The translations under genes were made by a program, and so were the position numbers. A stretch of DNA of 52,982 bases from a virus (taxonomy: Duplodnaviria; Heunggongvirae; Uroviricota; Caudoviricetes). The notes beneath the pieces are model-generated. The model did no database searches and was not told the origin of the DNA. It was given only the letters and a program-made list of their open reading frames with translations. This document shows, piece after piece, positions 36,688 to 52,982 of the stretch (positions are counted from its first letter, which is position 1; each line of letters starts with the position of its first letter). Location of the stretch: IMG/VR virus record IMGVR_UViG_2558860288_000010. One strand, written 5' to 3'.

Positions 36688-36720
36688 GCTTCACCTCCGC
36701 AGAGGTCAAACGCTGGATGC

Positions 36721-36869: not shown

Positions 36870-36881
36870 ATGTGCTGAAAA

Positions 36882-38235: not shown

Positions 38236-38239
38236 AGTA

Positions 38240-38480
38240 TCACCTCATCAGGTTAACCATCACCACCAACGACGCCAATCGACTGGTGGTGAACTGTGTA
38301 AGGTTGGCGTAACCGGCTACTCAAACCCGGCGCTTCCGAAGAAGCCCTCACACAGCCCACCATAATTTGGGCATAGCCGTGCTTAGCGCACAAAAAAACC
38401 GCTTAACGCGGTATGCGTTGAGTAGTATCCCGGGACGCCAATCCCGTGTGCCGATTTTGCGGCAACGCACAGAATATAGC
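38240..38480 (-). ncRNA. Candidate C4/CI-type antisense RNA locus (prophage copy)
   Basis: Non-coding leader upstream of the antirepressor-like gene. Two hairpin-containing segments each carry acgccaat (38272..38279, 38435..38442), with a partly complementary ttggcgt segment between them (38304..38310), plus the shared 18-nt block at 38449..38466. Confidence 0.35.
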
Positions 38481-38663
38481 GCCGGATAAATCATGTCGTC
38501 AACCCCAGTAAATGGACACCATGATGATCACAGCCATAGCTGCTACAACAGTTACAACTACCTCAGGCCAAAACATAACGATTTCCATATCACCTTTAGC
38601 CGCCAGACGAATAGAGACTCCCAATTCTGGCTGTCGAAGTAAAACACCGAATGTAAAAAATCG

Positions 38664-38812
38664 TAGGTGCATTTCTGCATCTGTGAATGGAGATGAGAGT
38701 TTGGATTGTGTGTGCGCATAAACGTCCCCGTTTAGCGCAGAAGTCACCGGAGTTTTTTAGGCTCCGATGACATGATTATGGCGAGTTGATTATGATGAAT
38801 CAATAGGTTCTT
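38664..38812. repeat. 149-bp direct repeat, copy B
   Basis: About 90% identical to 36721..36869. Confidence 0.85.
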
Positions 38813-38895
38813 ATGTCAAATGAACACTAGATCCAAAGGAGGGTAACAATTATCATAGCCAATGAGATTAATCTCATTTTTAATAAGGAAATTTC

Positions 38896-40017
38896 ATGAA
38901 ATATTTCTCAACTGGTTTTTATGTTTCAAACTCCACATCTCTAGCTGAGATCTTTAATGAATGTTTTTCTTGGGTAAACGACTCACCACATACAACTTTT
39001 ATTCCAGCACAATTAGTATGTGATTATAAAAGCGAGGAGTACTTCATAGAGTCTAAAAATGAAAGAATTGATATAATAACTTATAAAAACAAAGATACTA
39101 GTTTAGGCTGTTTTAGGTATTCGAAAATATCTGAGCCACACAAATGGGTAACAGATATTTCAATTAATAAAAATCTCAAAACTGATACCATGTGGATTCA
39201 GGTGGAATCTAGCGTTGTAAGCCAAGATGCAGCTTATCTAGCCCCGCAACCTAAGAAACCATTAGTTGTTATGAGATTGATTGATAAATTTTCTGGTGGT
39301 CTTGATGATATTTTCAAGGTGTCAGTCGAACCTCATTCCTTAGATGATACTGATGAACATTTAAATATAGCAGCTAAAGTTATAAATGGTGAAACTGACA
39401 ACAGACTACCAATAATATACGTTAGCTCCAAGTATTTTTTTAATGAACATGCTCACAATATCATCCCAGAACGCCTTGCAAGAAAGGTATGCGGATTAGC
39501 ACATGTATTAATTGAGCCTAGCAATAGACTATTTTCTATTAAGCTAAAAAATGAGACAAATGCTAAAAATGCCTATGCTGGTGCTGTTGGTATCTATTGG
39601 CCACGGGGTCAAAATATCAGTTTTTATCGCCGTGGTGAGAAAACCGCAAAAGAATTTGAAGATGAGTTATTTGATGATGTTGTAAGAGCTACGACTACAA
39701 TGGCTCCTGTCTCAGATAGTGGATGGAGTGAGATACAAACCAGAAAAACGAAAGACTCTATTAACTCACTCAAAGAAAGAGGAGAATACACACGCGAACT
39801 GATGGCGCTTTACGAAGCCGATAATGTTGCGAAAGATGACCAAATAGAAGATCTTAAGCATAAGATCTCCTCTTTAGAGCACAGAGTACGCACTCTTCAA
39901 TCACAAGCTTCAGCCCAAGGAAGCATTGTGCTTAATGCTGGTGAAGAGACTGATTTTTTTGATGGAGAAATCAAAAATATAATTATTGACGCACTAAAAA
40001 CTGCCATAAAAAAATAA
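38896..40017 (+). CDS. Hypothetical AT-rich 373-aa protein in reverse orientation to the surrounding early genes; possibly truncated
   Basis: ATG with AAGGAA RBS; C-terminal coiled-coil-like region. The stop follows a run of seven A's (40008..40014). Confidence 0.55.
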   Translation: MKYFSTGFYVSNSTSLAEIFNECFSWVNDSPHTTFIPAQLVCDYKSEEYFIESKNERIDIITYKNKDTSLGCFRYSKISEPHKWVTDISINKNLKTDTMWIQVESSVVSQDAAYLAPQPKKPLVVMRLIDKFSGGLDDIFKVSVEPHSLDDTDEHLNIAAKVINGETDNRLPIIYVSSKYFFNEHAHNIIPERLARKVCGLAHVLIEPSNRLFSIKLKNETNAKNAYAGAVGIYWPRGQNISFYRRGEKTAKEFEDELFDDVVRATTTMAPVSDSGWSEIQTRKTKDSINSLKERGEYTRELMALYEADNVAKDDQIEDLKHKISSLEHRVRTLQSQASAQGSIVLNAGEETDFFDGEIKNIIIDALKTAIKK

Positions 40018-40315
40018 AAATGAATTTGGTAGAAGCTACCATATCTTATCATCCCTAATTGCCAATAATGAATACAATAAAGAAACCGAGAGTCGCCGCC
40101 AATTACTTAAAAGGACTTTAACAGGTTACAGAAGCATGGATAGCGCAACACAAAGAAATTTAAAGGACTTAGGTTTCAGTGCGTCAAGCGATGGAAAACA
40201 CTGGAAGTTAACATATAATGAAGACCCTCGATATTCCTATATTTTACCTAAAACAGGAAGTGACCACAGAGGTTCTTTAAATGCTATCTCGGATATAGCA
40301 AACATTATTTTCTAA
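40016..40315 (+). pseudogene. Out-of-frame downstream continuation (about 100 codons) of the 373-aa gene
   Basis: Open frame from 40016 to the TAA at 40313..40315, with no ATG until 40135 and no RBS; a 1-nt change in the A7 run would fuse it to the upstream gene. Confidence 0.3.
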
Positions 40316-40323
40316 TAAATTTC

Positions 40324-40349
40324 AATAGCACTCACAAATGAGTGCTATT
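40324..40349. terminator. Hairpin between convergent genes
   Basis: aatagcactc-acaaat-gagtgctatt, a perfect 10-bp stem. Confidence 0.4.
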
Positions 40350-40366
40350 GTTGCCACTGAATTACT

Positions 40367-40621
40367 CTATTTAAATTCAACTTTTATCCCTTTGTTTAGC
40401 AGGGCATCAGAAACTGCCTTTTTTGTAACATTTATCCCTGCAAGCAATGCTTTATGCATTGGTCCCTTAAAAATTTCTACTTCTTCTTCAGTGAGTTTAG
40501 GCAATGTAATATAAATAACATCTTTCATCTGCTTGTTTTTATAGCATGAGCTTCTTGTGTGCTTACAATCGATATTTTCTTTATTTCCCAAAACATCATC
40601 CCCTTTATAATTCAGTTCCAC
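40367..40621 (-). CDS. Hypothetical small AT-rich protein
   Basis: ORF with alternative start and no clear RBS; lies between ren and the inserted reverse-oriented gene. Confidence 0.25.
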   Translation of the reverse strand: MELNYKGDDVLGNKENIDCKHTRSSCYKNKQMKDVIYITLPKLTEEEVEIFKGPMHKALLAGINVTKKAVSDALLNKGIKVEFK

Positions 40622-40685
40622 ACATCAATTATTTAGTTATCACGAATGTCGTAAAACTAAAATTAGTAACAATAATTGCTCATAC

Positions 40686-40973
40686 CTACTCTCTTCCATA
40701 TAAAGCCAACACCCGCTTCATCGCGGCACTTTGACGACACTCCTTAAAAATCAGATTCGTGCTCACCTTTCCTTCCCGTTCTTCTCTGGTAGCGAACCGG
40801 TAATACACCGTTCGCCAGACCTTACCATCAACGACCAGGATTCCTGACCGCGCCATTTTAGCCGCAGCCTGATTTATGCTGGTTACGGTTGCGCCTGTTA
40901 CCGCGGCAACGTCCTGCGCACAGAAGTTCTTATGAGTCCCCAGGTAATGAATAATTGCCTCTTTGCCCGTCAT
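40686..40973 (-). CDS. ren: Ren protein
   Basis: MTGKEAIIHYLGTHKNFCAQDVAAVTGATVTSINQAAAKMAR... is near-identical to lambda Ren as recalled. Confidence 0.85.
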   Translation of the reverse strand: MTGKEAIIHYLGTHKNFCAQDVAAVTGATVTSINQAAAKMARSGILVVDGKVWRTVYYRFATREEREGKVSTNLIFKECRQSAAMKRVLALYGRE

Positions 40974-41671
40974 ACACTTGCTCCTTTCAGCCCAAACTTA
41001 GCTTTGATTTCTGCGATCTTCGCCAGAGCCTGTGCACGATTTAGAGGTCTACCGCCCATAACAGGAAGTTGTTTTACTGGTTCAGGTATCGTCTCACCAC
41101 GGTTAATTCGCGCTGTCATACAGGTCAGTTCATCGGCAGCCTTGCGCCGTAATTCCGCGTCAGTCAGCGCATTGGCTCGCATGTTCTGGTACAGGTTGGT
41201 AACCAGCCAGTAGTGCGCGTTTGATTTCCACGGATAAGACTCTGCATCCGGATACAGCCCGCGCTTCCGGCAATACTCGTAAACCATATCAACCAGCTCG
41301 CTGGCGTTTGGCAGCCCGGCGGTAACGGATGCTTCTTCCCGGCACCAGGCGACAAACTGCCCGGGTGATGGCAGGAATGGTCGATTCTGCCGACGGGCTA
41401 CGCGCATTCCTGCGTTAACCTGTTCCATTGTGGTGATCCCGTTTTCCCGGAAAGCCAGAACCCACTGGCGGCGGATTTCGTTCAGTTCATTCTGGTCACG
41501 GTTAGCCAGGCTCGCCGGGAAAGTTGCCAGTAACTGGCTGAACACACCGTTGATGATCTGCGCTACCTGCTGTACCTGCGGCTTTTCGTCGTACTGTTCC
41601 GGCATGTTGTTGGCGATCCGACGCATCTGCTCACGGTCAAAGTTAACCATCTGTGCGGCGATGTTTTTCAT
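40970..41671 (-). CDS. P: Replication protein P (helicase loader)
   Basis: 233 aa, MKNIAAQMVNFDREQMRRIANNMPEQYDEKPQVQQVAQ... is near-identical to lambda P as recalled. Confidence 0.9.
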   Translation of the reverse strand: MKNIAAQMVNFDREQMRRIANNMPEQYDEKPQVQQVAQIINGVFSQLLATFPASLANRDQNELNEIRRQWVLAFRENGITTMEQVNAGMRVARRQNRPFLPSPGQFVAWCREEASVTAGLPNASELVDMVYEYCRKRGLYPDAESYPWKSNAHYWLVTNLYQNMRANALTDAELRRKAADELTCMTARINRGETIPEPVKQLPVMGGRPLNRAQALAKIAEIKAKFGLKGASV

Positions 41672-42597
41672 AAATCCACCCCGTAAATCCAGTCAGTGTT
41701 TGTCAGGTCGAGTTTTGGTTTGCTGGCTATCATGCCTGCCTGTTGCTTGTTACGGTTGATTTCGAGCTGGGTCCACTTGTCGCGGAGTTTGGCCGGACTC
41801 AGCACGTTACCGGACCAGAAGTTGTCCTGGCATGCCCAGCGGAACAGTACACACATGTCGCGGTGGTTACGTCCGTCACGTTCACGCATCAGGCGGATAT
41901 CGTTAGCCCACCCTGCAAAATTCGGTTTTCTGGCTGATGGCGCGATGGTCTTCACCATGTCAAACATCCACTCTGCGGCGGTCAGGTCTTCTGCTGTCCC
42001 CCACTTGCTGCCGCTCTGAATTGCAGCATCCGGTTTCACCACAGGAAGATCGTTTTCTGGTTGGTCAGAGGATTCGCCAGAATTCTCGGACGAAAAAGGT
42101 TTTATATTGTCTTTTGTTAGTTTGTCTTTTGTGTTTACCTGATTCGGGTAAACGCCTTTACCTGATTTGGGTAAACTTTTTTTACCTGATTCAGGTAAAT
42201 TTACCTCTTTCAGGTAAACTTTATTTTTCTTACCTGATTCGGGTAATGTTGACCATTCACTGACCACATTATTAATGCCGGTATTCCGCCCGCTCTGAAT
42301 AAAAATCCCACGCTTTACCAGAACACTTTTTGCAGCAGAACACTTGTGCGGCAATATCCCGGTTAACTCGGAAAGTTGCTCGTTGCTCACCCAATCCAGT
42401 TTTTTATTAAAGCCATATGTTTTGCGCATGACAGCCAGGAAGACCAGAAGCTGGTGCTGTGTTAATCCGGCCAGCATTACAGCTTCCAGCAACTCATTTG
42501 CAATGCGCGTATAACCATCATCGAGATCTGCCACGCGCGGCTCCTTTTGTGCCACATCCGGCACTGGAAAATTGAATATCTCAGCAGTGTTTGCCAT
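41668..42597 (-). CDS. O: Replication initiator, O-like, with ori iterons inside the coding sequence
   Basis: N-terminus ...RVADLDDGYTRIANELLEA...LLVFLAVMRKTYGFNKK resembles lambda O. Probable ATG at 42597; the track ORF extends to 42687. Confidence 0.7.
   Translation of the reverse strand: MANTAEIFNFPVPDVAQKEPRVADLDDGYTRIANELLEAVMLAGLTQHQLLVFLAVMRKTYGFNKKLDWVSNEQLSELTGILPHKCSAAKSVLVKRGIFIQSGRNTGINNVVSEWSTLPESGKKNKVYLKEVNLPESGKKSLPKSGKGVYPNQVNTKDKLTKDNIKPFSSENSGESSDQPENDLPVVKPDAAIQSGSKWGTAEDLTAAEWMFDMVKTIAPSARKPNFAGWANDIRLMRERDGRNHRDMCVLFRWACQDNFWSGNVLSPAKLRDKWTQLEINRNKQQAGMIASKPKLDLTNTDWIYGVDL
42135..42247. repeat. Origin iterons: five copies of about 19 bp TTACCTGATTCGGGTAAAC
   Basis: Counted directly at 42135, 42158, 42181, 42201 and 42229; each unit is itself an inverted repeat (TTACC...GGTAA). 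An AT-rich tract lies at 42100..42134. Confidence 0.7.
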
Positions 42598-42683
42598 AAT
42601 TCCTCCCGCAATGAGTGCGTTACGATTTGCACCTGAAAGTCGGCTCTGTTCCCGCAGACCGGCTTTCGCCATTTTTGAACCTG

Positions 42684-43229
42684 TCATATTGCCCCCAGCA
42701 TGGCGGTGACCATCGCCATCAATGGACCAGCCAGATCCGGGTCCACTCGAAACATCGACACAATGCCTTCACTCATCTCCTTCAGTTTCTGGTGGCGTGG
42801 TGCGTTGAGAATGACCGCCTGCTTTGCCTCACAGAGTTCCTTTTCCATTTCAGCCAGCCGAGCCATGAAGCTATCCTGCTCAACCAGGTGGCCGCGATAT
42901 TCCAGCGGTAGTACCGCCAGAATTGCCGGGGTCAGTTCACGCACGTTATTTCGGTATTTTTCAGAATCGAATTTGTTATCGAGGAAGCGGAACAGCTTCT
43001 GGCGTGCACGGCTGACATCATCAGGGAAATCGATAGTGCCGCCGCCCTGCTCCCGATACTCATTCACAATGAGTGTGGCAACGACATCCTGATTATCTTC
43101 AGCCGACCAGGCGCGGACGGCATCACGGATTTTTTCGTGGCCTGGCACCTGTTTTGTTTGAGAACGATTTATCACCGCAGTCGGGCTAAATCCGCTAGTC
43201 TGTTGGTATGTAAGTGGTTGCATAGTCAT
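42684..43229 (-). CDS. CII-like / YdaT-like early regulatory protein (putative)
   Basis: 181-aa ORF in the cII position between cro and O; ATG start. Confidence 0.35.
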   Translation of the reverse strand: MTMQPLTYQQTSGFSPTAVINRSQTKQVPGHEKIRDAVRAWSAEDNQDVVATLIVNEYREQGGGTIDFPDDVSRARQKLFRFLDNKFDSEKYRNNVRELTPAILAVLPLEYRGHLVEQDSFMARLAEMEKELCEAKQAVILNAPRHQKLKEMSEGIVSMFRVDPDLAGPLMAMVTAMLGAI

Positions 43230-43253
43230 TGCCTTATCAGTTAACGCCGCAGA

Positions 43254-43481
43254 TTAGGCGGCAGAATTACTCGCGTTAAACAATGGTGCGAGGTCGGGAC
43301 GAATATCTGCTGGTTTAATCTTTCCACCAGTGGCTGAGACAATTTTCATTACATAGCGGGCATCAATTCCGCCACCGTGTAGCCAACGCCAAACAGTGGG
43401 CTGGGCTACACCGCATAGATCTGCCAGTCGTTTTTGACTACCTGTAATACTGATTGCGAGTTGAATGGTTTGATTTGTCAT
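43254..43481 (-). CDS. cro: Cro-like HTH repressor
   Basis: MTNQTIQLAISITGSQKRLADLCGVAQPTVWRWL... is an HTH, divergent from cI. ATG at 43481. Confidence 0.6.
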   Translation of the reverse strand: MTNQTIQLAISITGSQKRLADLCGVAQPTVWRWLHGGGIDARYVMKIVSATGGKIKPADIRPDLAPLFNASNSAA

Positions 43482-43514
43482 TATCAATTCCTATTGGTAT
43501 TACAATGAATAAAT

Positions 43515-43579
43515 AATAGCAATACGTATTAACCATAACAATAGCAAAACGTGTTTTGACCATCAATACGCAAGCGTAT
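43515..43579. promoter_or_regulatory. Divergent cI/cro operator-promoter region
   Basis: Three dyad-symmetric sites: AATACGTATT (43521..43530), AAAACGTGTTTT (43546..43557) and ATACGCAAGCGTAT (43566..43579), with ATAGCAA(T/A)A half-site-like motifs. Confidence 0.5.
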
Positions 43580-43591
43580 AAATTAAAACTT

Positions 43592-44284
43592 ATGAAAAAA
43601 GAAACTCTTGCTGATCGCTTAAACCTAGCGATGGAACAATCTGGAATGTCTCAAGGCGCTCTTGCAAAGGCGTCTGGCGTAGCTCAACCCACAATCTGGA
43701 GACTGACAAGCGGCAACGCGCGCGGCTCAACAAAAATTGTTGAAATAGCTAATGCATTGGGTGTTCGAACAGAGTGGCTCTCATCAGGCATAGGCCCGAT
43801 GAGAAATGACGGTCAACAATTAGGGAAGCCTACTGCCAACCATCCCAAATACTTCAAGATTGACGTTCTTGACATAGAAGTAAGCGCTGGTCCTGGTGTC
43901 ATTAACCGCGAATTCGTAGAAGTTCTACGTTCAGTTGAGTACTCCCAGGACGATGCTCGCCATATGTTCGATGGCAGGAAGGCGGAAAATATCCGCATCA
44001 TTAACGTGCGCGGTGACAGTATGTCAGGGACGATCGAACCTGGTGACCTGCTGTTCGTTGATATCACAGTTAAATCTTTCGATGGCGATGGTATCTATGC
44101 GTTCCTGTACGACGACACAGCCCATGTTAAGCGCCTACAAATGATGAAGGACAAGCTATTGGTTATCTCTGATAACAAGAGCTACTCACCGTGGGACCCG
44201 ATCGAGAAAGACGAGATGAACCGGGTGTTTATCTTCGGGAAAGTCATTGGAAGCATGCCGCAGACGTATAGGAAGCATGGGTAG
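43592..44284 (+). CDS. cI: CI-type prophage repressor (HTH plus S24 LexA-like peptidase domain)
   Basis: N-terminal HTH (MSQGALAKASGVAQPTIWRL) and C-terminal autocleavage region with GDSM. ATG at 43592, with no obvious RBS, lies 13 nt after the last operator palindrome. The track start at 43556 is TTG inside the operators. Confidence 0.8.
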   Translation: MKKETLADRLNLAMEQSGMSQGALAKASGVAQPTIWRLTSGNARGSTKIVEIANALGVRTEWLSSGIGPMRNDGQQLGKPTANHPKYFKIDVLDIEVSAGPGVINREFVEVLRSVEYSQDDARHMFDGRKAENIRIINVRGDSMSGTIEPGDLLFVDITVKSFDGDGIYAFLYDDTAHVKRLQMMKDKLLVISDNKSYSPWDPIEKDEMNRVFIFGKVIGSMPQTYRKHG

Positions 44285-44386
44285 TTTTATTGCTAATGTT
44301 ATGTGTTTGTGAGATAGGCCAAATATAGTTGGCCACGGGACAAATTGTATGAGCGTATATTTATAGGAAAAACGGAAGCCATTACA

Positions 44387-44803
44387 ATGAATGGAAATAT
44401 ACATGCTGATTATTTTAAGTGGTGGTGTGGGACAGTTATAGTTGGTGCGATCCCAATTATAATTAGATTGATTTCATTCATGATTATAAAAAAAGACATT
44501 GAGCTTTTTAATATTACTGAGTTAGTATGCTTTGGTTTCGCCATACAAATATCAAGCATTTACTTTGGCATTGGTAAACCGAGTTTCAAAAGTGAAAATA
44601 AATTCATAGTAAATACAACCTTCTCCATTATTTTTATAGTGATTTTCTCTACTATATACATAATAAGCATGTTGGCAGAGGAACTTTTGGATTTAACATT
44701 CACCAAGATACTAGTAATAATTACATGCTTAATATCGCTATATATTGGACAAAACTCCGTTCAATGTGCTATTATAAATAATGATATTTTAACCAAGGAG
44801 TGA
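44387..44803 (+). CDS. Four-pass membrane protein (138 aa), first gene of the rex-slot cassette
   Basis: ATG at 44387. Hydrophobic segments VIVGAIPIIIRLISFMII, LVCFGFAIQISSIYFGI, TFSIIFIVIFSTIYIISML and ILVIITCLISLYIG. Very AT-rich. Confidence 0.5.
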   Translation: MNGNIHADYFKWWCGTVIVGAIPIIIRLISFMIIKKDIELFNITELVCFGFAIQISSIYFGIGKPSFKSENKFIVNTTFSIIFIVIFSTIYIISMLAEELLDLTFTKILVIITCLISLYIGQNSVQCAIINNDILTKE

Positions 44804-44805
44804 TT

Positions 44806-44982
44806 ATGTATTATTTAATGATCTTGCTCTTTATAATAACAGTTATCATTCCTGTATATCTTGCATTTCTCTCAAGAAATAACCTCAAAAAATATAAAGA
44901 CGCACTAGCGTCCATTGAAAACATAAGAAAGAAAAATAGTGAGCATTTTGCCGAGAAAGCAAAAGCACTTAGATATCGATAA
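44806..44982 (+). CDS. Small single-pass membrane protein (58 aa)
   Basis: ATG at 44806 with a strong AAGGAG RBS; translation MYYLMILLFIITVIIPVYLAFL then a charged tail. Confidence 0.45.
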   Translation: MYYLMILLFIITVIIPVYLAFLSRNNLKKYKDALASIENIRKKNSEHFAEKAKALRYR

Positions 44983-44993
44983 CAGGTATTACT

Positions 44994-45896
44994 ATGTCGT
45001 TAAAAAATATAATTTACATTGATTACGAAAAAGTTTACTCCCTCAGTTCACAGTTATTCGAAGGAGTTGTTCAATCAGCCGTAGAAGAGCAGGCATCAAC
45101 GCTATCAAACTCTGATGCGGTCGAGGTCAAAACGCAGACAAAATCTAGTAATACTAGTGATACAAATAAGCTATCGACTGTTATAAACCCGCATGACTAC
45201 CATTACTTGAAATTTGAAAAAGAACTGTTTCATAGAGGACTCATCAAATCAATCTCCTCTGGGGATTTTTATCCAGAGGAGATTGAATCAGGACAATTCG
45301 TAAAAATAAAATGTGCTATTGAAATTAATGATTATAAAAAACTAAAAGATACCACTAAAAATTTTACTGACCTTGGATATGCTATTCATTATGTTCACAA
45401 ACATGATGAATTAGAAAATATTGACATCTTGATTTCTGATAAGACAGCAAAGCCAAATGTAAAAAAAGATTTAAAAATACTTCGCGATAATTTATTAGAA
45501 CAAATAAAAGAAAGTGCCATGAAAAACAAAAAAGCTTTCTTTGACAACCTATCAATTGTTTTAAATTATGCTTATGGAGATGAGCTTGAAATATCACAAA
45601 AAATTAATGATTACAAATTTACATCTTTCTTAATTCGGGGATTTTTAAAGCTAACGCCAGAAATGTTAGTGAAACTATACTCCAGAAAAACGACCAGAGA
45701 ATTTACTATTGTTGGTATAGTAACGCAATCAGGTAAAGATACAATCAATAATACAGACTCAGAAAGAGCAATGATTGATATACGAAGTGCAGCATGGAAC
45801 ATGAATGATGCATTAGCAAATATCGAGTCAACGTTCTGTAAACCAACAGAAAATGAGTTTTTCATAGAACCTATCGCGTTGTACTCAGAAATTTAA
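44994..45896 (+). CDS. Hypothetical soluble protein (300 aa), third gene of the rex-slot cassette
   Basis: ATG start; AT-rich; no motif recognised; followed by a terminator. Confidence 0.55.
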   Translation: MSLKNIIYIDYEKVYSLSSQLFEGVVQSAVEEQASTLSNSDAVEVKTQTKSSNTSDTNKLSTVINPHDYHYLKFEKELFHRGLIKSISSGDFYPEEIESGQFVKIKCAIEINDYKKLKDTTKNFTDLGYAIHYVHKHDELENIDILISDKTAKPNVKKDLKILRDNLLEQIKESAMKNKKAFFDNLSIVLNYAYGDELEISQKINDYKFTSFLIRGFLKLTPEMLVKLYSRKTTREFTIVGIVTQSGKDTINNTDSERAMIDIRSAAWNMNDALANIESTFCKPTENEFFIEPIALYSEI

Positions 45897-45905
45897 TCAT
45901 TTGCA

Positions 45906-45932
45906 CCCGGCCACCGCGCCGGGTTTTCTTTT
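45906..45932 (+). terminator. Rho-independent terminator after the cassette
   Basis: cccggc-caccgc-gccggg stem-loop followed by ttttctttt. Confidence 0.6.
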
Positions 45933-46055
45933 GTTCCCTCCCCTCATCACACAAACCGTTCGAAAAACCACCACAACCTCCCTTCAGTTATCGCTATGCG
46001 ATGCAAGTCACAAAATTAATTCTTTTTGCTATCAAACAGTTAATATCAAAACACA

Positions 46056-46100
46056 TCAATCAATAGCAATAAGTATTGATACAACCATAGCAATAGCTAT
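46056..46100. promoter_or_regulatory. Candidate OL/pL operator region
   Basis: Dyads TCAATAgcaataagTATTGA (46060..46079) and ATAGCaataGCTAT (46087..46100) carry the same ATAGCAATA motif as the cI/cro operators; positioned upstream of the kil-gam-bet-exo block. Confidence 0.35.
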
Positions 46101-46296
46101 TATCACCATGTCGCAACAACACAACGATACGGCAACCACCTGATTCACCGTTGCGATGACCGCTTAGATCCGCAGCTTGAATTTCAGCAGGCTCCGGGGA
46201 GTGCGAGGGGTGAAGCGGACGCGTGAACGTCGGTGTGACCAGCTGAAATCAACTCAACACTTCATACCTTAGTCGCTTCAACGAGGCGGCTTAGTT

Positions 46297-46587
46297 ATGA
46301 CAACCGGCGGCCATCCACCGCCTGAATACGCGCAGAAGTCTCTATATGTTCAGCAGCCCAGCTTACGGGCAGGAGTTTTTATGGTTCATCAACATTACGG
46401 AACGCAGACCGTTAATCGAGGTGCGGTCATGCCAGGAATGCTGGTCAAACACAAAGATGGTACCTGGACTGCATCAGCTAATTTACGCGGACGGCTATAT
46501 CTGCATCGCGGCATCGAGCGCACTTATACCCGTGATTTGCTCGTGGAAGTTTTTCTCGACGGACGCGGTAACGGCCTGAATCACTAA
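46297..46587 (+). CDS. Hypothetical protein upstream of gam (kil/cIII position)
   Basis: 96-aa ORF; an overlapping 77-aa ORF in another frame (46346..46579) means the correct frame is uncertain. Confidence 0.25.
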
Positions 46588-46662
46588 TCCCCTTTCCTGT
46601 TTTCCTAATCAGCCTGGCATTTCGCGGGCGATATTTTCACAGCCATTTTCAGGAGTTCAGCC

Positions 46663-46959
46663 ATGAACGCTTATTACATTCAGGATCGTCTTGAGGCTCA
46701 GAGCTGGGCACGTCACTACCAGCAGATCGCCCGTGAAGAGAAAGAGGCAGAACTGGCAGACAACATGGAAAAAGGTCTTCCACAGCACCTGTTTGAATCA
46801 CTCTGCATCGATCATTTGCAACGCTGCGGGGCCAGCAAAAAAGCCATTACCCGTGCGTTTGATGACGATGTTGAGTTTCAGGAGCGCATGGCAGAACACA
46901 TCCGGTACATGGTTGAAACCATTGCTCACCACCAGGTTGATATTGATTCAGAGGTATAA
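46663..46959 (+). CDS. gam: Gam (RecBCD inhibitor), short form
   Basis: [33 protein letters not shown]...[10 protein letters not shown] is near-identical to lambda GamS as recalled. Confidence 0.9.
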
Positions 46960-46964
46960 AACGG

Positions 46965-47750
46965 ATGAGTACAGCACTCGCAACGCTGGCAGGGAAGCTG
47001 GCTGAACGTGTCGGCATGGATTCTGTCGACCCACAGGAACTGATCACCACTCTTCGCCAGACGGCATTTAAAGGTGATGCCAGCGATGCGCAGTTCATCG
47101 CATTGTTGATCGTCGCCAACCAGTACGGCCTTAATCCGTGGACGAAAGAAATTTACGCCTTCCCTGATAAGCAGAACGGCATCGTTCCTGTGGTGGGCGT
47201 TGATGGCTGGTCCCGCATCATCAATGAAAACCAGCAGTTTGATGGCATGGACTTTGAGCAGGACAATGAATCCTGTACATGCCGGATTTACCGCAAGGAC
47301 CGTAATCATCCGATCTGCGTTACCGAATGGATGGATGAATGCCGCCGCGAACCATTCAAAACTCGCGAAGGCAGAGAAATCACGGGGCCGTGGCAGTCGC
47401 ATCCCAAACGGATGTTACGGCATAAAGCCATGATTCAGTGTGCCCGTCTGGCCTTCGGATTTGCTGGTATCTATGACAAGGATGAAGCCGAGCGCATTGT
47501 CGAAAATACCGCATACACTGCAGAACGTCAGCCGGAACGCGACATCACTCCGGTTAACGATGAAACCATGCAGGAGATTAACACTCTGCTGATCGCCCTG
47601 GATAAAACATGGGATGACGACTTATTGCCGCTCTGTTCCCAGATATTTCGCCGCGACATTCGCGCATCGTCAGAACTGACACAGGCCGAAGCAGTGAAAG
47701 CTCTTGGATTCCTGAAACAGAAAGCCACTGAGCAGAAGGTGGCAGCATGA
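46965..47750 (+). CDS. bet: Bet (Red-beta single-strand annealing protein)
   Basis: [48 protein letters not shown]... matches lambda Bet as recalled. Confidence 0.9.
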
Positions 47751-48427
47751 CACCGGACATTATACTGCAGCGTACCGGGATCGACGTGAGAGCTGTCGAA
47801 CAGGGGGATGATGCATGGCACAAATTACGGCTCGGCGTCATCACCGCTTCAGAAGTTCACAATGTGATAGCAAAGCCCCGCTCAGGAAAGAAGTGGCCTG
47901 ACATGAAAATGTCCTACTTCCACACCCTGCTGGCTGAGGTTTGCACCGGTGTGGCTCCGGAAGTTAATGCTAAGGCGCTGGCCTGGGGAAAACAGTACGA
48001 GAACGACGCCAGGGCCCTGTTTGAGTTTACTTCCGGCGTGAATGTTACTGAATCCCCGATCATCTATCGCGACGAAAGTATGCGTACCGCCTGCTCTCCA
48101 GATGGTTTATGCAGTGATGGCAACGGCCTTGAACTGAAATGCCCGTTTACCTCCCGGGATTTCATGAAATTCCGGCTCGGTGGTTTCGAGGCCATAAAGT
48201 CGGCTTACATGGCCCAGGTGCAGTACAGCATGTGGGTGACGCGAAAAGATGCCTGGTACTTTGCCAACTATGACCCGCGAATGAAGCGTGAAGGCCTGCA
48301 TTATGTCGTGGTTGAGCGGGATGAAAAGTACATGGCGAGTTTTGACGAGATGGTGCCGGAGTTCATCGAAAAAATGGACGAGGCACTGGCTGAAATTGGT
48401 TTTGTATTTGGGGAGCAATGGCGATGA
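47747..48427 (+). CDS. exo: Exo (Red-alpha 5'-3' exonuclease)
   Basis: [40 protein letters not shown]... matches lambda Exo as recalled. Confidence 0.9.
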
Positions 48428-48580
48428 AGCATACTCACGATAATATCCGGGTAGGCGCGATCACTTTCGTCTACTCCGTTACAAAGCGAGGCTGGGTATT
48501 TCCCGGCCTTTCTGTTATCCGAAATCCACTGAAAGCCCAGCGGCTGGCTGAGGAGATAAATAATAAACGGGGGGCTGTAT
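48425..48580 (+). CDS. Small hypothetical protein (51 aa), not in the ORF track
   Basis: ATG at 48425 overlapping the exo stop; its stop overlaps the methyltransferase start. Confidence 0.3.
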
Positions 48581-49136
48581 GACTGATTTCACCGGAAGCA
48601 ATACTCCTGCAGAACATCGCGACAGCTGGTGCACACCACCAGAGATTTTTGCTGCGCTTAATGCAGAGTTCGTTTTTCAACTTGATGCTGCAGCCAGTGA
48701 AAAAAACCGACTATGTCGGCTTTTTATCTCACAGGAGCAGAACACATTAACCACTTCATGGCCTGAAGCAATGGGATATGCCTCTGGTTATGTCTGGCTG
48801 AATCCACCATACAGCAATATTTCCCCTTTTGTTAAAAAGGCAGCCACTGAAAACAAATTCAGTAGTGTGGGATGTGTAATGTTATTGCCTGCTGACACGT
48901 CTGTCGGATGGTTTCATGAAGCGATACAAACCGCCAGTGAGGTCAGATTCATCACGGCAGGACGACTGGCATTTATTAACCCACTCACCGGGAAACCCGT
49001 CAGTGGAAATAATAAAGGCTCGATGCTCATTATCTGGCACCCATACCCCCGTACACACTGCCACTTTACGACCGTTGATCGTGGAGAGTTGATAGCGTTC
49101 GGCTCAAGGATTCTTGCCCGTCGGGAGGCCGCATGA
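48579..49136 (+). CDS. Phage N6-adenine DNA methyltransferase (Dam-like)
   Basis: Catalytic motif WLNPPYSN (the NPPY/DPPY signature of N6-adenine methyltransferases); ATG start. Confidence 0.75.
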   Translation: MTDFTGSNTPAEHRDSWCTPPEIFAALNAEFVFQLDAAASEKNRLCRLFISQEQNTLTTSWPEAMGYASGYVWLNPPYSNISPFVKKAATENKFSSVGCVMLLPADTSVGWFHEAIQTASEVRFITAGRLAFINPLTGKPVSGNNKGSMLIIWHPYPRTHCHFTTVDRGELIAFGSRILARREAA

Positions 49137-49212
49137 CAACAACAGAATGCATTTTTCTGGCTGCGGGATTCATATTCTGTGTGCTTATGCTTGCCGACAT
49201 GGGACTTGTTCA

Positions 49213-49428
49213 GTGACACCTCAGCAGGAAAACGCCCTTCGCAGCATTGCCCGTCAGGCTAATGCTGAAATCAAAAAAGCCAGGCAGCAGTTTCCGGATA
49301 AAAACGTCGATGACATTTGCCGTAGCGTACTGAAGAAGCACCGCGAAACGGTAACGCTGATGGGATTCACACCGACTCATTTAAGCCTGGCGATCGGCAT
49401 GTTAAACGGCGTCTTTAAGGAGCGGTGA
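49213..49428 (+). CDS. Hypothetical protein (about 71 aa)
   Basis: Probable GTG start at 49213 overlapping the stop of a 27-codon hydrophobic micro-ORF (49133..49216); the track ORF begins at a TTG at 49114 inside the methyltransferase gene. Confidence 0.3.
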   Translation: MTPQQENALRSIARQANAEIKKARQQFPDKNVDDICRSVLKKHRETVTLMGFTPTHLSLAIGMLNGVFKER

Positions 49429-49526
49429 GCATGAAAAACAAAATCATCATGGAGCTACAGGCTCCTTTTTTATTATTCGCATTCACCCTCAAGCGTATTG
49501 ACCAACAATTCAGGGATTAATGAAAG

Positions 49527-49745
49527 ATGGCAGACATCATTGATTCAGCATCAGAAATTGAAGAATTACAGCGCAACACAGCAATAAAAATGCGCCGCCT
49601 GAACCACCAGGCTATATCTGCCACTCATTGTTGTGAGTGTGGCGATCCGATAGATGAACGAAGACGCCTGGCCGTTCAGGGTTGTCGGACTTGTGCAAGT
49701 TGCCAGGAGGAGATCGAACTTAAGAACAAACAATGGGGACTGTGA
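49527..49745 (+). CDS. TraR/DksA-family C4 zinc-finger protein
   Basis: Four Cys in CCECGDPIDERRRLAVQGCRTCASC and the small size typical of phage TraR-like proteins. Confidence 0.6.
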   Translation: MADIIDSASEIEELQRNTAIKMRRLNHQAISATHCCECGDPIDERRRLAVQGCRTCASCQEEIELKNKQWGL

Positions 49746-49792
49746 TGGCCTCAAAGCAGCAAATTTCAACATCGTCCAATTGAGGTGTAAAA

Positions 49793-50071
49793 ATGTTCAG
49801 AATCATTTTTCCTAACACCTGGTACGTCGATCACCACGGCACTCCCTGCAAAATCCTGCGTTCTACCCACAACAAAGTTCACTACATCCGAAAAGGCAGA
49901 ACATGTATCGCCAGCATGTTCCGATTTAATCATGACTTTGAACCTGTGAATAAAGCTGATGCAGATCGGATAGCAGAAGAGATCGAAACGGCAGAACACA
50001 TTAAGAAGTTACGTGACATGCGTTCAAAAAGCAGAGGTAACTATGGAATCATACAGCCTCACACTCGATGA
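49793..50071 (+). CDS. Hypothetical protein (92 aa)
   Basis: ATG with GAGGTG RBS. Confidence 0.35.
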   Translation: MFRIIFPNTWYVDHHGTPCKILRSTHNKVHYIRKGRTCIASMFRFNHDFEPVNKADADRIAEEIETAEHIKKLRDMRSKSRGNYGIIQPHTR

Positions 50072-50487
50072 GGCCTGCCAGCTTCTCAAGATATCCAGAC
50101 CTACAGCAATCATGTCAATCCAATAAATGGAGACTCCAAGTGGAAGAAGAAATCTTCACTCGTGAAGAGGCTGCGTCGTATCTGAAGGTAGACAAAGGCA
50201 CTATCACGCAGTGGATACGAAGTGGACGACTTCAAGCCGCAAAGATAAATCCAGATAAACCTAAAAGCCCATATCGCATTTGCAAATCAGACTGCATTGC
50301 GGCGCTTAAGTCTGTGAGACACAATAGCGCGGTGAATGCGGTTGATGTGCAGGAGGTTAAAGCATGTCAATCAAACTGCGCGGTGGCACATGGCACTGCG
50401 ATTTCGTCGCGCCAGATGGATCAAGAGTTAGACGCTCTCTTGAAACATCGGACAAGAGGCAAGCGCAAGAACTTCACGATCGTCTGA
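50068..50487 (+). CDS. xis: Excisionase-like HTH protein (putative Xis)
   Basis: Central segment REEAASYLKVDKGTITQWIRSGRLQAAKI is a typical excisionase-type HTH. Start uncertain (ATG 50068 or GTG 50140); the 3' end overlaps int by 124 nt. Confidence 0.45.
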   Translation: MRPASFSRYPDLQQSCQSNKWRLQVEEEIFTREEAASYLKVDKGTITQWIRSGRLQAAKINPDKPKSPYRICKSDCIAALKSVRHNSAVNAVDVQEVKACQSNCAVAHGTAISSRQMDQELDALLKHRTRGKRKNFTIV

Positions 50488-51524
50488 AAGCAGAAGCGTG
50501 GAGAGTAAAAAATCTCGGTGAATCACCGAAAAAGCTATTCAAGGAAGCCTGCATACGGTGGCTGCGAGAGAAAGCGGATAAGAAGTCCATTGATGATGAC
50601 AAGAGCATTATATCGTTCTGGATGTTGCACTTCAGAGAAACCATTCTCTCTGACATAACAACAGAAAAAATAATGGAGGCGGTAGACGGGATGGAAAACC
50701 GCCGCCATCGCCTGAACTGGGAGATGAGCCGGGATAGGTGTTTGCGGCTTGGCAAGCCAGTGCCGGAGTATAAACCAAAGCTGGCAAGCAAAGGAACGAA
50801 GACGCGGCATCTGGCAATACTTCGCGCTATTCTCAATATGGCTGTTGAATGGGGATGGCTTGACAGGGCGCCCAAAATATCAACACCACGCGTTAAGAAT
50901 GGACGAATCAGATGGCTTACAGAGGAGGAATCGAAGCGCCTGTTTGCAGAAATTGCTCCTCATTTCTTCCCTGTGGTCATGTTTGCAATCACGACAGGCC
51001 TTCGTCGTTCCAACGTTACAGACCTTGAGTGGTCACAGGTCGATCTGGATAAGAAAATGGCATGGATGCACCCTGATGAAACAAAAGCTGGCAATGCGAT
51101 CGGAGTTCCTCTTAACGAAACCGCATGCCAGATATTAAGAAAACAGCAGGGGCTCCATAAGAGATGGGTATTTGTCCACACCAAACCTGCCTACCGAAGC
51201 GACGGAACAAAAACAGCAGCGGTAAGGAAGATGAGAACCGACAGCAACAAGGCATGGAAGGGAGCGTTAAAGCGGGCAGGCATTAGCAACTTCCGCTTCC
51301 ATGACCTGAGGCATACCTGGGCAAGCTGGCTGGTTCAGTCCGGTGTCTCTCTTCTTGCACTTAAAGAGATGGGAGGATGGGAAACTCTCGAAATGGTTCA
51401 AAGATACGCCCACCTTTCAGCTGGGCATCTCACCGAGCACGCGAGCAAAATCGATGCGATTATAAGTCGCAATGGCACAAATACGGCACAAGAGGAGAAC
51501 GTAGTTTACTTAAATGCGAGGTAA
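50364..51524 (+). CDS. int: Tyrosine integrase (lambda-type)
   Basis: ATG with AGGAGG RBS; catalytic HDLRHTWAS and Tyr in VQRYAHL; ends 15 bp from the tRNA 3' end. Confidence 0.85.
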   Translation: MSIKLRGGTWHCDFVAPDGSRVRRSLETSDKRQAQELHDRLKAEAWRVKNLGESPKKLFKEACIRWLREKADKKSIDDDKSIISFWMLHFRETILSDITTEKIMEAVDGMENRRHRLNWEMSRDRCLRLGKPVPEYKPKLASKGTKTRHLAILRAILNMAVEWGWLDRAPKISTPRVKNGRIRWLTEEESKRLFAEIAPHFFPVVMFAITTGLRRSNVTDLEWSQVDLDKKMAWMHPDETKAGNAIGVPLNETACQILRKQQGLHKRWVFVHTKPAYRSDGTKTAAVRKMRTDSNKAWKGALKRAGISNFRFHDLRHTWASWLVQSGVSLLALKEMGGWETLEMVQRYAHLSAGHLTEHASKIDAIISRNGTNTAQEENVVYLNAR

Positions 51525-51538
51525 CTTATTGATTTAGA

Positions 51539-51614
51539 TGGTGCCGATAATAGGAGTCGAACCTACGACCTTCGCATTACGAATGCGCTGCTCTACCAAC
51601 TGAGCTATATCGGC
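51539..51614 (-). tRNA. thrW: tRNA-Thr (thrW-type), integration target
   Basis: Reverse complement reads GCCGATATAGCTCAGTTGGTAGAGCAGCGCATTCGTAATGCGAAGGTCGTAGGTTCGACTCCTATTATCGGCACCA (76 nt); its 3' 46 nt are duplicated at 11108..11153. Confidence 0.9.
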
Positions 51615-51728
51615 CCTGAAAGGACATGTTCACGAACGTGAATCACGGTGGGCAAGGTTAAAACTAACCGGGCGATGCGTCAATGGCCTTGTGAATCAAA
51701 TGGCTACTTTTGCATCACCCGGTTTTAT

Positions 51729-52982
51729 TTACGCACGAATGGTGTAATCACCAATGCCGATCCACTTGTAAGTGGTCAGTGCTTCCAGCCCCATTGGGCC
51801 ACGCGCGTGGAGTTTTTGTGTGCTTACCGCCACTTCCGCACCCAGACCAAACTGGCCGCCGTCGGTAAAACGCGTAGAGGCGTTAACGTAAACAGCGGAC
51901 GAATCCACTTCGTTAACAAAACGCTGGGCGTTGCGCATATCGCGGGTCAGGATCGCATCGGAGTGTTGTGTGCCGTGTTCACGAATATGGGCGATGGCAT
52001 CGTCAAGATCGCTGACGATTTTGACGTTCAAATCTAATGACAGAAACTCATCGTCATACTCTTCGGCTTTAACAGCAACCACCTTCGCAGGGCCTGCCTG
52101 CAACTGCGCCAGTGCAGCTGCATCTGCGTGTAATGTCACGCCGCTTTCCGCCATTTGTTTGCTTAATGCGGGCAGGAAGCTATCGGCGATGTTTTTATTC
52201 ACCAGCAACGTTTCAACCGTATTACATGTGCTCGGACGCTGAGTTTTCGCGTTGACGATCACTTTTAATGCTTCAGCGATCTCTACACTTTCATCAACGT
52301 AAATATGGCATACGCCTATACCACCTGTGATCACCGGGATTGTCGACTGTTCACGGCACAGTTTATGCAAACCAGCGCCACCACGCGGGATCAGCATGTC
52401 GATGTATTTATCCATACGCAGCATTTCACTGACCAGCGCACGGTCAGGATTATCAATCGCCTGCACGGCACCCGCCGGTAAGCCGCAGGATTTCAGGGCG
52501 TCCTGAATCACCGCCACCGTTGCAGCGTTAGTGCGACACGTTTCTTTGCCACCGCGCAGGATCACCGCATTACCGGTTTTCAGGCACAGCGAAGCGACAT
52601 CAACCGTCACGTTCGGGCGCGCTTCATAAATCACGCCAATAACCCCCAGCGGTACGCGACGACGCTCAAGACGCAGGCCGCTGTCCAGTACGCCGCCATC
52701 GATTACCTGCCCCACCGGATCGGCGAGGTTGCACACCTGACGTACATCGTCGGCAATGCCTTTCAGCCGTGCGGGCGTCAGTGCCAGACGGTCAAGCATC
52801 GCTTCGCTAAGGCCATTGGCTCGCGCGTCAGCAACATCCTGGGCGTTAGCGTTGAGGATGATTTCGCTTTGTGCTTCCAGTTCATCGGCGATTTTTTCCA
52901 GCACGCGATTTTTTTCGCGGCTGGAGAGTTGCGCTAATTTATACGAGGCTTGCTTCGCGGCAATGCCCATTTGTTCCAGCAT
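51729..52982 (-). CDS. proA: Gamma-glutamyl phosphate reductase
   Basis: 417-aa translation matches E. coli ProA as recalled; the ATG is at the very end of the window (52980..52982). Confidence 0.95.

What the first reader, a model, noticed from the sequence alone, without database searches (positions are those of the whole stretch)
44345..45935. AT-rich three-gene membrane/membrane/soluble cassette in the rexAB slot of the immunity region
Between the cI repressor gene and the candidate OL/pL region, where lambda carries rexA-rexB, this prophage has a co-oriented operon: a 4-TM protein (138 aa), a 1-TM protein (58 aa, strong RBS) and a 300-aa soluble protein, closed by a clean terminator. The genes are much more AT-rich than the flanking cI and recombination genes and the stop/start codons are closely packed. 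A membrane effector plus a soluble sensor expressed with the repressor in the lysogen is the logic of Rex-type exclusion, but I see no sequence similarity to RexA/RexB and the gene order is reversed. This is my best candidate for an undescribed prophage-encoded exclusion or defense system.
Basis: partly seen in the sequence, partly recalled or inferred. Interest (0 to 1): 0.85.

Follow-up and report, generated by a model that had tools for sequence, protein, structure and literature searches.

The report
Prophage three-gene membrane defence candidate
Just after this prophage's repressor gene sits a widely conserved three-gene operon (two small membrane proteins and a soluble protein from the family of an anti-phage protein, DolA) that very probably protects the lysogen against other phages, though nobody has tested it.

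Summary
Three tightly packed co-oriented genes lie between the cI-like repressor and a terminator: A (44387-44803, 138 aa, four membrane helices), B (44806-44982, 58 aa, one membrane helix) and C (44994-45896, 300 aa, soluble). GC is 28-33% against about 50% in the flanks.

C belongs to Pfam DUF6414, the family of DolA from the validated Dodola defence system. It has no ClpB-like DolB partner and no similarity to RexA/RexB or Kiwa. The A-B-C trio recurs in 56 of 61 genomic and 57 of 58 viral loci across several phyla. It often sits directly behind lambda-type or 186-type repressors, or next to restriction and other defence genes.

In related E. coli prophages the same slot holds SIR2, HipA+DUF3037, ASCH genes or nothing. 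A sister architecture replaces A and B with an Mrr-type nuclease that ends in the same tail motif as B. This suggests C is a sensor/regulator that docks swappable effectors, the effector here being a membrane pair, as in Rex.

The exact protein C is listed as an untested "predicted novel defense gene" in DefensePredictor (Science 2026). Verdict: a real, unvalidated new variant of a known kind.

The parts
43556..44284 (+). cI-type immunity repressor (context; RefSeq start 43592)
   Evidence: Pfam HTH_3 1.5e-6 and Peptidase_S24 4.5e-18. Annotated as an XRE family regulator in E. coli HKUOPY1.
44286..44386 (+). 5' leader of the cassette; left boundary of the cargo
   Evidence: Homology to sister prophages stops 1-3 nt after the cI stop codon. 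No terminator-like site lies between cI and gene A.
44387..44803 (+). Gene A: 138-aa protein with four membrane helices; a family with no Pfam, NCBIfam or PADLOC model
   Evidence: Four helices in the AF2 model, though pLDDT is only 65. Residues T16, P23, R27, S80 and S117 are invariant across phyla. An A-family gene lies directly upstream of C in 56/61 genomic and 57/58 viral loci. pN 0.19-0.23 against pS 0.68-0.85.
44806..44982 (+). Gene B: 58-aa protein with one N-terminal membrane helix and a charged cytoplasmic tail carrying a diverged copy (IRKKNSEHF) of the family tail motif
   Evidence: AAGGAG ribosome-binding site. Found in 52/56 loci by hydropathy and in the other four by HMM. Family tail motif: T-R-x-x-Y/F-Y-x-D/E-Y/F-x-x-R-K. 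dN/dS 0.37-0.58.
44994..45896 (+). Gene C: 300-aa soluble DUF6414 protein (DolA family); OB-like beta-barrel with a helical insertion and a disordered 25-62 linker
45905..45934 (+). Intrinsic terminator belonging to the prophage backbone (tImm-like)
   Evidence: Stem ACCCGGC/GCCGGGU followed by a U-run, dG -13.7 kcal/mol. Homology to prophages with other cargo or an empty slot resumes at 45905/45906.
46060..46103 (+). Candidate OL/PL (context): two exact operator-like words overlapping a promoter-like site
   Evidence: ATAGCAATA occurs exactly only at 43516 (OR), 46063 and 46087. TTGATA-16-TATTAT lies at 46076-46103.

Best explanation
This is a lysogen-expressed, three-component anti-phage (exclusion or abortive-infection) system.

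Proposed mechanism:
- The cassette is read through from the repressor gene, so it is made in the lysogen.
- A (four membrane helices) and B (one membrane helix) form an inner-membrane effector.
- B's cytoplasmic tail tethers the soluble DUF6414 protein C.
- C acts as the infection sensor/regulator. When it detects a cue from a superinfecting phage, it switches the membrane pair on. The membrane is compromised and the infection aborted, as in Rex (RexA to RexB).

What is shown:
- The three genes are real and co-conserved.
- C is a member of the DolA family.
- The slot is a cargo hotspot.
- The same tail motif occurs on a nuclease partner in a sister architecture.

What is inferred:
- Co-transcription with cI.
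- The C-tail contact.
- Which component senses and which one kills.
- The anti-phage phenotype itself.

I put the probability of some defence or exclusion role at about 0.8, and of this specific division of labour at about 0.5.
For: 1. C matches Pfam DUF6414 over its full length. DolA of the validated Dodola system is PF19952.
2. The exact protein scores log-odds 5.89 in DefensePredictor, above their strict cut-off of 4.
3. Same backbone, different cargo. In sister E. coli prophages the slot holds SIR2, HipA kinase + DUF3037 (both domains were among those newly validated in defence by DefensePredictor), ASCH genes, or nothing. The boundaries fall exactly at the cI stop codon and the terminator.
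4. The trio is conserved in 56/61 genomic and 57/58 viral loci from Gammaproteobacteria, Bacteroidales, Poribacteria, Chloroflexi and Chlorobi, with overlapping junctions.
5. It sits directly downstream of, and co-oriented with, immunity repressors of two unrelated types: lambda cI/S24 and 186 CI. One example is the 186-like Vibrio phage PQ189350, ordered CI-A-B-C-Int.
6. Nearest neighbours elsewhere include type I and ISP restriction-modification genes, GmrSD, KAP NTPase, Schlafen/AlbA_2, Fic and HNH.
7. There is a sister architecture: an Mrr_cat nuclease of about 200 aa followed by an overlapping DUF6414 gene, seen in Sulfurovum, in the cyanobacterium Microcoleus and in two further contigs of unrecorded origin.
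   - Its DUF6414 proteins are 42-45% identical to trio-type C proteins.
   - The nuclease ends in the same tail motif as B.
   - A 319-aa relative that is not next to DUF6414 lacks the motif.
   - Codon usage shows selection at the protein level.
   - A nuclease is plainly an effector, so DUF6414 is most simply the sensor/regulator and A+B the membrane effector.
Against: - There is no experiment and no expression data.
- DefensePredictor's overall validation rate was 45%.
- A Dodola homologue gave minimal protection in S. thermophilus.
- PADLOC's DolA model does not hit C or any of 56 relatives. DefensePredictor's own homology column is empty for this protein. The link to DolA therefore rests on shared Pfam membership alone.
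- The C family is acidic (median pI 5.3), and its best structural match, Ten1, is a protein-binding OB fold. Nucleic-acid sensing is not indicated.
- The model of A is of low confidence (pLDDT 65), and A and B resemble no known pore or channel.
- In Kiwa the membrane protein is the sensor rather than the effector, so the opposite polarity is possible.
- The C-tail contact is inferred only from co-occurrence.
- The enteric form of the B tail is diverged from the family motif.
Confidence: 0.5

Rival explanations
1. Kiwa-like polarity. The A/B membrane complex senses phage attachment or DNA ejection and releases or activates C. C is then the effector, binding phage DNA or a replication protein through its OB-like barrel and blocking replication without killing the cell.
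Against: There is no sequence or fold similarity to KwaA or KwaB. The sister architecture swaps A/B for an Mrr nuclease carrying the same tail. That is hard to read as a swapped sensor and easy to read as a swapped effector. C is acidic and has no recognisable catalytic motif.
Confidence: 0.2
2. Classical superinfection exclusion at DNA entry. The A/B/C complex in the inner membrane blocks genome injection by incoming phages, as Sie or Imm-type proteins do, with no sensing step and no cell death.
For: The system consists of small inner-membrane proteins encoded next to the repressor and probably expressed in the lysogen. This is typical of prophage Sie functions (established knowledge of P22 SieA, T4 Imm and HK97 gp15).
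Against: Injection blockers are usually specific to a phage or receptor and narrowly distributed. This trio spans several phyla and also occurs outside prophages, next to restriction-modification genes. An equivalent architecture uses a cytoplasmic nuclease in place of the membrane proteins.
Confidence: 0.12
3. Not a defence system. The cassette could be a toxin-antitoxin-like addiction or stress module that stabilises the prophage, or a lysogenic-conversion membrane function unrelated to phages.
For: No phenotype is known. A membrane toxin with a soluble regulator is also the logic of an addiction module. About half of high-scoring DefensePredictor candidates gave no protection in tests. Toxin-antitoxin genes lie next to the Sulfurovum locus.
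Against: The slot alternates with SIR2 and HipA+DUF3037 cargo. The family is shared with the validated Dodola system. Neighbours are restriction-modification and other defence genes. An addiction role and abortive infection are not mutually exclusive.
Confidence: 0.13

Closest known systems
Dodola (DolA + DolB; Millman et al. 2022, as cited)
   Same: The soluble protein C is in the same Pfam family as DolA (PF19952/DUF6414), matching over the whole profile. Both are small operons found in mobile or defence contexts.
   Different: - No ClpB-like DolB is present here or in any of about 120 related loci. The partners are instead a protein with four membrane helices and one with a single membrane helix.
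- PADLOC's DolA and DolB models hit none of the 56 relatives tested.
- Dodola's mechanism is unknown, so this comparison transfers no mechanism.
Lambda RexA/RexB
   Same: Same genomic slot: between cI and OL/PL, co-oriented with cI and ending at a terminator. Same parts list: a soluble protein of about 280-300 aa plus a protein of about 140 aa with four membrane helices. The proposed logic, sensor to membrane effector, is also the same.
   Different: - No homology by Pfam: neither RexA nor RexB is hit.
- hhalign probability is 0.1% for both pairs.
- The gene order is reversed.
- There is an extra single-helix membrane protein.
Kiwa (KwaA/KwaB)
   Same: A membrane protein with four helices paired with a soluble protein of about 315 aa, giving a membrane-anchored defence complex.
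   Different: - KwaB has a Rossmann-like domain plus DUF4868, whereas C is an OB-like barrel with a helical insertion.
- KwaA has an intracellular beta-barrel. A is only 138 aa and nearly all helix.
- The NCBIfam KwaA model gives 17.7 bits against a cut-off of 100, and on B rather than A.
- Kiwa has no third gene.
Mrr_cat nuclease + DUF6414 gene pair
   Same: The DUF6414 subfamily is the same, 42-45% identical to trio-type C proteins. The upstream gene overlaps in the same way and ends in the same tail motif, T/I-R-x-x-Y/F-Y-x-D/E-Y/F-x-x-R-K.
   Different: The effector is a soluble PD-(D/E)xK-type nuclease domain instead of the A+B membrane pair. This pair is not in PADLOC-DB v2 either.
DefensePredictor predicted cluster (DeWeirdt, Mahoney & Laub, Science 2026, PMC13092281, Table S10)
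   Same: The identical protein WP_023568614.1 is listed with log-odds 5.89 as a 'Predicted novel defense gene'.
   Different: It is a prediction for the single gene C only. It is not among the 94 units they tested, and DUF6414 is not among their newly validated domains. The two membrane genes are not annotated in the RefSeq record I examined (E. coli HKUOPY1).

Membership tests
RexAB | RexA-family soluble protein (Pfam RexA; structure 8TWQ) | tested here: not met
RexAB | RexB-family four-helix membrane protein (Pfam RexB) | tested here: not met
   No Pfam hit for A. hhalign of the A-family profile against lambda RexB gives probability 0.1%.
RexAB | Located between cI and OL/PL, co-oriented with cI | tested here: met
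   ORF map, cassette boundaries, operator words and promoter-like site downstream.
RexAB | Exclusion of T4 rII and similar phages, with membrane depolarisation | not testable with these tools
   Needs plating and membrane-potential assays.
Dodola | DolA: a DUF6414 (PF19952) protein | tested here: inconclusive
   The Pfam criterion is met: 64.3 bits against a cut-off of 25, over the full profile. PADLOC's DolA model hits neither C nor any of 56 relatives at E<=1. C is therefore in the same Pfam family but a different subfamily.
Dodola | DolB: an adjacent ClpB-like partner | tested here: not met
   There is no conserved downstream gene. The upstream genes are A and B in 56/61 and 57/58 loci. No Clp/AAA+ family appears among the listed top 25 Pfam families of 88 nearest neighbours.
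Kiwa | KwaA (NCBIfam NF041622) membrane protein | tested here: not met
   A has no hit. B scores 17.7 bits against a cut-off of 100. PADLOC gives no hit.
Kiwa | KwaB with a DUF4868 domain | tested here: not met
   No DUF4868 hit in Pfam or PADLOC. C's fold is an OB-like barrel with a helical insert, not Rossmann plus DUF4868.
Membrane-pair + DUF6414 trio (proposed here) | Order A (four helices), B (one helix with the T-R-x-x-Y-Y-type tail), C (DUF6414), with tight or overlapping junctions | tested here: met
   Window coordinates. Conserved in 56/61 genomic and 57/58 viral loci. The enteric B tail is a diverged version of the motif.
Phage lysis genes (holin/spanin) | A curated holin or spanin family match and a location in the lysis cassette | tested here: not met
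   B has only sub-threshold hits: Holin_LLH 15.9 bits against 24.9, and Rz-like spanin at E 0.024. The genes lie in the immunity region, not in a lysis cassette.
Anti-phage defence system (any) | Reduced plating efficiency or plaque size when the system is expressed | not testable with these tools
   Only a prediction exists: DefensePredictor log-odds 5.89, not among the tested units.

The most novel reading that the evidence does not exclude
DUF6414 proteins are a general infection-sensing hub. They hold swappable effectors through a short conserved C-terminal tail, T/I-R-x-x-Y/F-Y-x-D/E-Y/F-x-x-R-K. Three effector types would exist: a ClpB-like ATPase (Dodola), an Mrr-type nuclease, and a membrane pair with four plus one helices. 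The membrane version would be a non-homologous functional replacement of RexAB that temperate phages of several phyla have repeatedly placed behind their repressor gene.
Probability: 0.35. Interest if true: 0.8.

Novelty: new variant of a known kind. Interest (0 to 1): 0.68.

Why it matters
Dodola has no known mechanism. RexAB, the oldest known exclusion system, is still only partly understood.

This finding offers several things:
- A compact E. coli representative (1.6 kb) of a DUF6414 system with an obvious, assayable output: membrane integrity.
- A sister version whose output is a nuclease.
- A short tail motif that can be mutated to test how sensor and effector are coupled.

If confirmed, it would:
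- add a widespread family (about 1,000 clusters at 50% identity) to the defence catalogue;
- give DUF6414 a role;
- document the repressor-proximal slot of lambdoid and 186-like prophages as a general defence hotspot.

It also shows that two real genes of the system are missing from the one RefSeq record examined (E. coli HKUOPY1) and from Pfam, NCBIfam and PADLOC-DB v2.

Tried and rejected
- Rex homology: rejected by Pfam, hhalign and fold searches.
- Kiwa membership: rejected.
- Canonical Dodola: rejected. There is no DolB, and the PADLOC DolA model does not hit.
- Holin/spanin reading of B: only sub-threshold compositional hits.
- Sequence search of the C profile against the PDB: nothing meaningful.
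- Foldseek against the PDB and against BFVD viral structures: no match with E<=0.001. AFDB50 was unavailable.
The enteric-only alignment gave pLDDT 65, too poor for a fold search.
- Rfam scan of 43000-47000: no RNA family.
- Plasmid collection: no relative of C.
- Direct comparison with a DolA sequence: not possible. The representative search returned only the top 150 hits, all of this subfamily.
- B-family HMM against the Sulfurovum nuclease tail: the motif was too short to score. The shared tail was established by inspecting 16 nuclease tails and by codon analysis instead.
- Error caught: I first took the HKUOPY1 annotation as describing the whole window. A check showed that only window positions from about 35.3 kb onward match that strain. 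The HKUOPY1 late-gene annotation was therefore not used for the window.
- The Brenes & Laub paper on E. coli prophage defences is not in the paper library, so I could not check whether it describes this trio.
Full report
**1. What is in the sequence**

The ORF map and the sequence show four co-oriented genes on the + strand.
- A cI-type repressor at 43556/43592-44284, with HTH_3 and Peptidase_S24 domains.
- Gene A at 44387-44803, 138 aa. The finding's start, 44345, is a TTG extension that the homologues do not share.
- Gene B at 44806-44982, 58 aa, with an AAGGAG ribosome-binding site.
- Gene C at 44994-45896, 300 aa.

GC falls to 0.28-0.33 over the three genes, against about 0.5 on both sides. 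A 7-bp GC hairpin with a U-run follows at 45905-45934, with dG -13.7 kcal/mol. No terminator-like site separates cI from A.

Exact copies of the word ATAGCAATA occur only in the cro/cI intergenic region (43516) and at 46063/46087. At the latter site they overlap a promoter-like TTGATA-16-TATTAT. The cassette therefore lies between cI and a probable OL/PL, which is lambda's rexAB slot. Rfam finds no RNA family in the region.

**2. The genes are real and form a conserved trio**

Orthologous cassettes occur in Enterobacter, a second E. coli lineage and Buttiauxella. C is 57-69% identical in these. They sit in the same place behind different repressors. Non-synonymous divergence is far below synonymous divergence for all three genes.

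Relatives of C with only 25-34% identity still have the same upstream genes: a four-helix gene of about 135-150 aa and a single-helix gene of 40-63 aa. These relatives come from Vibrio, Pseudomonas, Halomonas-group bacteria, Psychrobacter, Shewanella, Stenotrophomonas, Methylobacter, Nitrosomonas, Bacteroidales, Poribacteria, Chloroflexi, Chlorobiaceae and Bacteriovorax. The junctions commonly overlap by 4 bp.

HMMs built here give these counts:

| Set | Loci with C | A-family gene found | B found |
|---|---|---|---|
| Genomic loci | 61 | 56 | 52 of 56 by hydropathy; the other 4 by HMM |
| Viral set: 57 IMG/VR contigs + Vibrio phage PQ189350 | 58 | 57 | 57 |

A has invariant T16, P23, R27, S80 and S117 across phyla. 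It matches no Pfam, NCBIfam, PADLOC or PHROG family. RefSeq annotates only gene C in strain HKUOPY1.

**3. What C is**

C matches Pfam DUF6414 (PF19952) over the whole profile, at 2e-17 and 64.3 bits against a cut-off of 25.

DUF6414 is the domain of DolA in the Dodola defence system, whose partner DolB is ClpB-like. This is stated in a 2024 preprint and shown in DefensePredictor Table S5, where DolA matches PF19952 with probability 100.

PADLOC's DolA model does not hit C or any of 56 relatives, and no locus has a ClpB-like neighbour. This is therefore a different subfamily in a different architecture.

A profile of the subfamily finds 1,045 representatives at E<=1e-3 among 1.84 billion 50%-identity cluster representatives.

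RexA (8TWQ) is in the library but is not among the top matches. Profile comparisons with lambda RexA and RexB give probability 0.1%.

The C family is acidic, with median pI 5.3. I therefore do not claim that it binds nucleic acid.

**4. The slot is a cargo hotspot**

Thousands of E. coli prophages share the flanks. Only 1 of 5,426 complete genomes carries this cassette, and one more carries a 66%-identical variant.

With the same or a similar repressor and the same kil-gam-bet genes downstream, the slot holds one of the following:
- a SIR2-family gene;
- HipA kinase + DUF3037, two domains newly validated in defence by DefensePredictor;
- a hypothetical gene plus an ASCH gene;
- DUF7946, DUF6932 or BamE-like genes;
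- nothing.

Homology breaks 1-3 nt after the cI stop codon and resumes at the first base of the terminator hairpin. The cargo is therefore 44286-45904, and the terminator belongs to the backbone.

**5. Context elsewhere**

- In Vibrio phage 10N.286.54.E4_PE001, a 186-like phage, the order is CI-A-B-C-Int.
- Among 25 non-redundant viral loci, the co-oriented upstream neighbour is a 186-type CI in 5 and an HTH_3 regulator in 6. Five neighbours carry a Peptidase_S24 domain, as lambda-type cI repressors do.
- Outside prophages, the 88 nearest neighbours include type I and type ISP restriction-modification genes, GmrSD (4), KAP NTPase (3; PADLOC candidate system PDC-S20), Schlafen/AlbA_2, Fic, HNH and integrases.
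- I did not compute a background rate, so this is descriptive only.

**6. A sister architecture that suggests which part does what**

In Sulfurovum, A and B are replaced by a 193-aa protein with an Mrr_cat nuclease domain that overlaps the start of C. Its family has 566 members.

Three further members of about 200 aa were looked up, and each is followed by an overlapping DUF6414 gene. One is from the cyanobacterium Microcoleus and the other two are from contigs whose organism was not recorded. These DUF6414 genes hit my C HMM at 1e-89 to 1e-103. They are 42-45% identical to trio-type C proteins, closer than the enteric trio proteins are.

All sixteen nuclease tails of this size class that I inspected end in T/I-R-x-x-Y/F-Y-x-D/E-Y/F-x-x-R/K-K. 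This is the motif that follows the membrane helix of B. For example, Microcoleus has ITRQKYYEEYIHRKRKKES, and a Poribacteria B has STRKRYYEEYMRRKRGTKD. A 319-aa relative that is not next to DUF6414 lacks the motif.

The invariant Arg is encoded by six different codons and the Tyr residues by both TAT and TAC. The conservation is therefore at the protein level, not a by-product of the overlap or of a ribosome-binding site. The enteric B proteins carry a diverged version (IRKKNSEHF).

My inference runs as follows.
- The tail is the element through which C contacts its partner.
- C is the constant sensor/regulator.
- The partners are interchangeable effectors: an ATPase in Dodola, a nuclease in the sister pair, and a membrane pair here.

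This is an inference from co-occurrence, not a demonstrated contact.

**7. Prior knowledge**

- The term DUF6414 occurs in one paper of the library.
- The exact protein C (WP_023568614.1) is in Table S10 of DeWeirdt, Mahoney & Laub (Science 2026), with log-odds 5.89 and the label 'Predicted novel defense gene'. No known-defence homologue is recorded for it.
- It does not appear in the tables of tested or validated units, and DUF6414 is not among their newly validated domains.
- Neither the trio nor the nuclease pair is in PADLOC-DB v2.
- I could not check newer DefenseFinder releases or the Brenes & Laub prophage screen.

**8. Verdict**

I commit to a lysogen-expressed defence system in which C senses infection and A+B are the membrane effector.
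- Probability of this specific mechanism: about 0.5.
- Probability of any defence or exclusion role: about 0.8.

The rivals are Kiwa-like reversed polarity, a pure injection block, and a non-defence addiction or conversion module.

It is a new variant of a known kind: a DolA-family protein with new partners, in a known type of prophage hotspot. It is untested experimentally and well suited to testing.

Noticed in passing
window 38896-40017 (+), GC about 0.31-0.36 around 40000-40700: A second AT-rich gene on the opposite strand to its neighbours, between the nin-type genes and ren. It has no Pfam family. It is 373 aa here but 472 aa in E. coli HKUOPY1, with one gap in the alignment, so the window copy may be frameshifted. 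It is another possible cargo or defence gene.
   Followed up: partly
window 1-35300 compared with 35300-52982: Only the early/immunity half of the window matches E. coli HKUOPY1, at 96-99.6%. The left 35 kb is a different late region, with a contractile tail, terminase and a ClpP-like protease-capsid fusion. No complete E. coli genome holds that region in full, so the prophage is a mosaic.
   Followed up: partly
window 50364-51614: An intact 386-aa ORF in the position of the integrase gene ends 15 nt before a tRNA-Thr(CGU) gene on the opposite strand, which is probably the attachment site. The HKUOPY1 relative instead has a frameshifted integrase next to a tRNA-Ser.
   Followed up: no
L067, L068, L069, L070 (E. 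coli prophages sharing the window's flanks): The repressor-proximal slot holds SIR2, HipA kinase + DUF3037, a hypothetical gene + ASCH, DUF7946, DUF6932 or BamE-like genes, or is empty. The junctions are identical at the cI stop codon and the terminator. This is a defence-cargo hotspot in lambdoid prophages.
   Followed up: partly
L040, L048, L058, L062, L117, L120 (Vibrio/Aliivibrio genomic loci and related viral contigs): An ORF of about 470-480 aa lies directly downstream of the trio. Three of the scanned nearest neighbours match KAP_NTPase (Pfam) and three match the PADLOC candidate system PDC-S20. The scan gave only per-family counts, so assigning these hits to particular loci is my inference. 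If right, two putative defence genes sit stacked behind the 186-type CI repressor.
   Followed up: no
L133 (Acinetobacter baumannii) 3001-5044: A 319-aa Mrr_cat relative that lacks the tail motif is followed by an unannotated 313-aa gene with no Pfam or PADLOC hit and no match to the C HMM. The pair lies next to Tn7-like tniQ/tniB genes and may be yet another partner pairing.
   Followed up: no
L044 (Sulfurovum) 3527-4409: Three small co-oriented ORFs lie immediately upstream of the nuclease + DUF6414 pair. By eye they resemble two antitoxin-like proteins and a MazF/PemK-like toxin. I did not test them against any family library.
   Followed up: no
L017, L037, L055, L059, L065 (Poribacteria MAGs): Several Poribacteria copies of the trio look degraded: A is truncated or absent, or C is split or fused. 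This suggests frequent decay of the system in that lineage.
   Followed up: no
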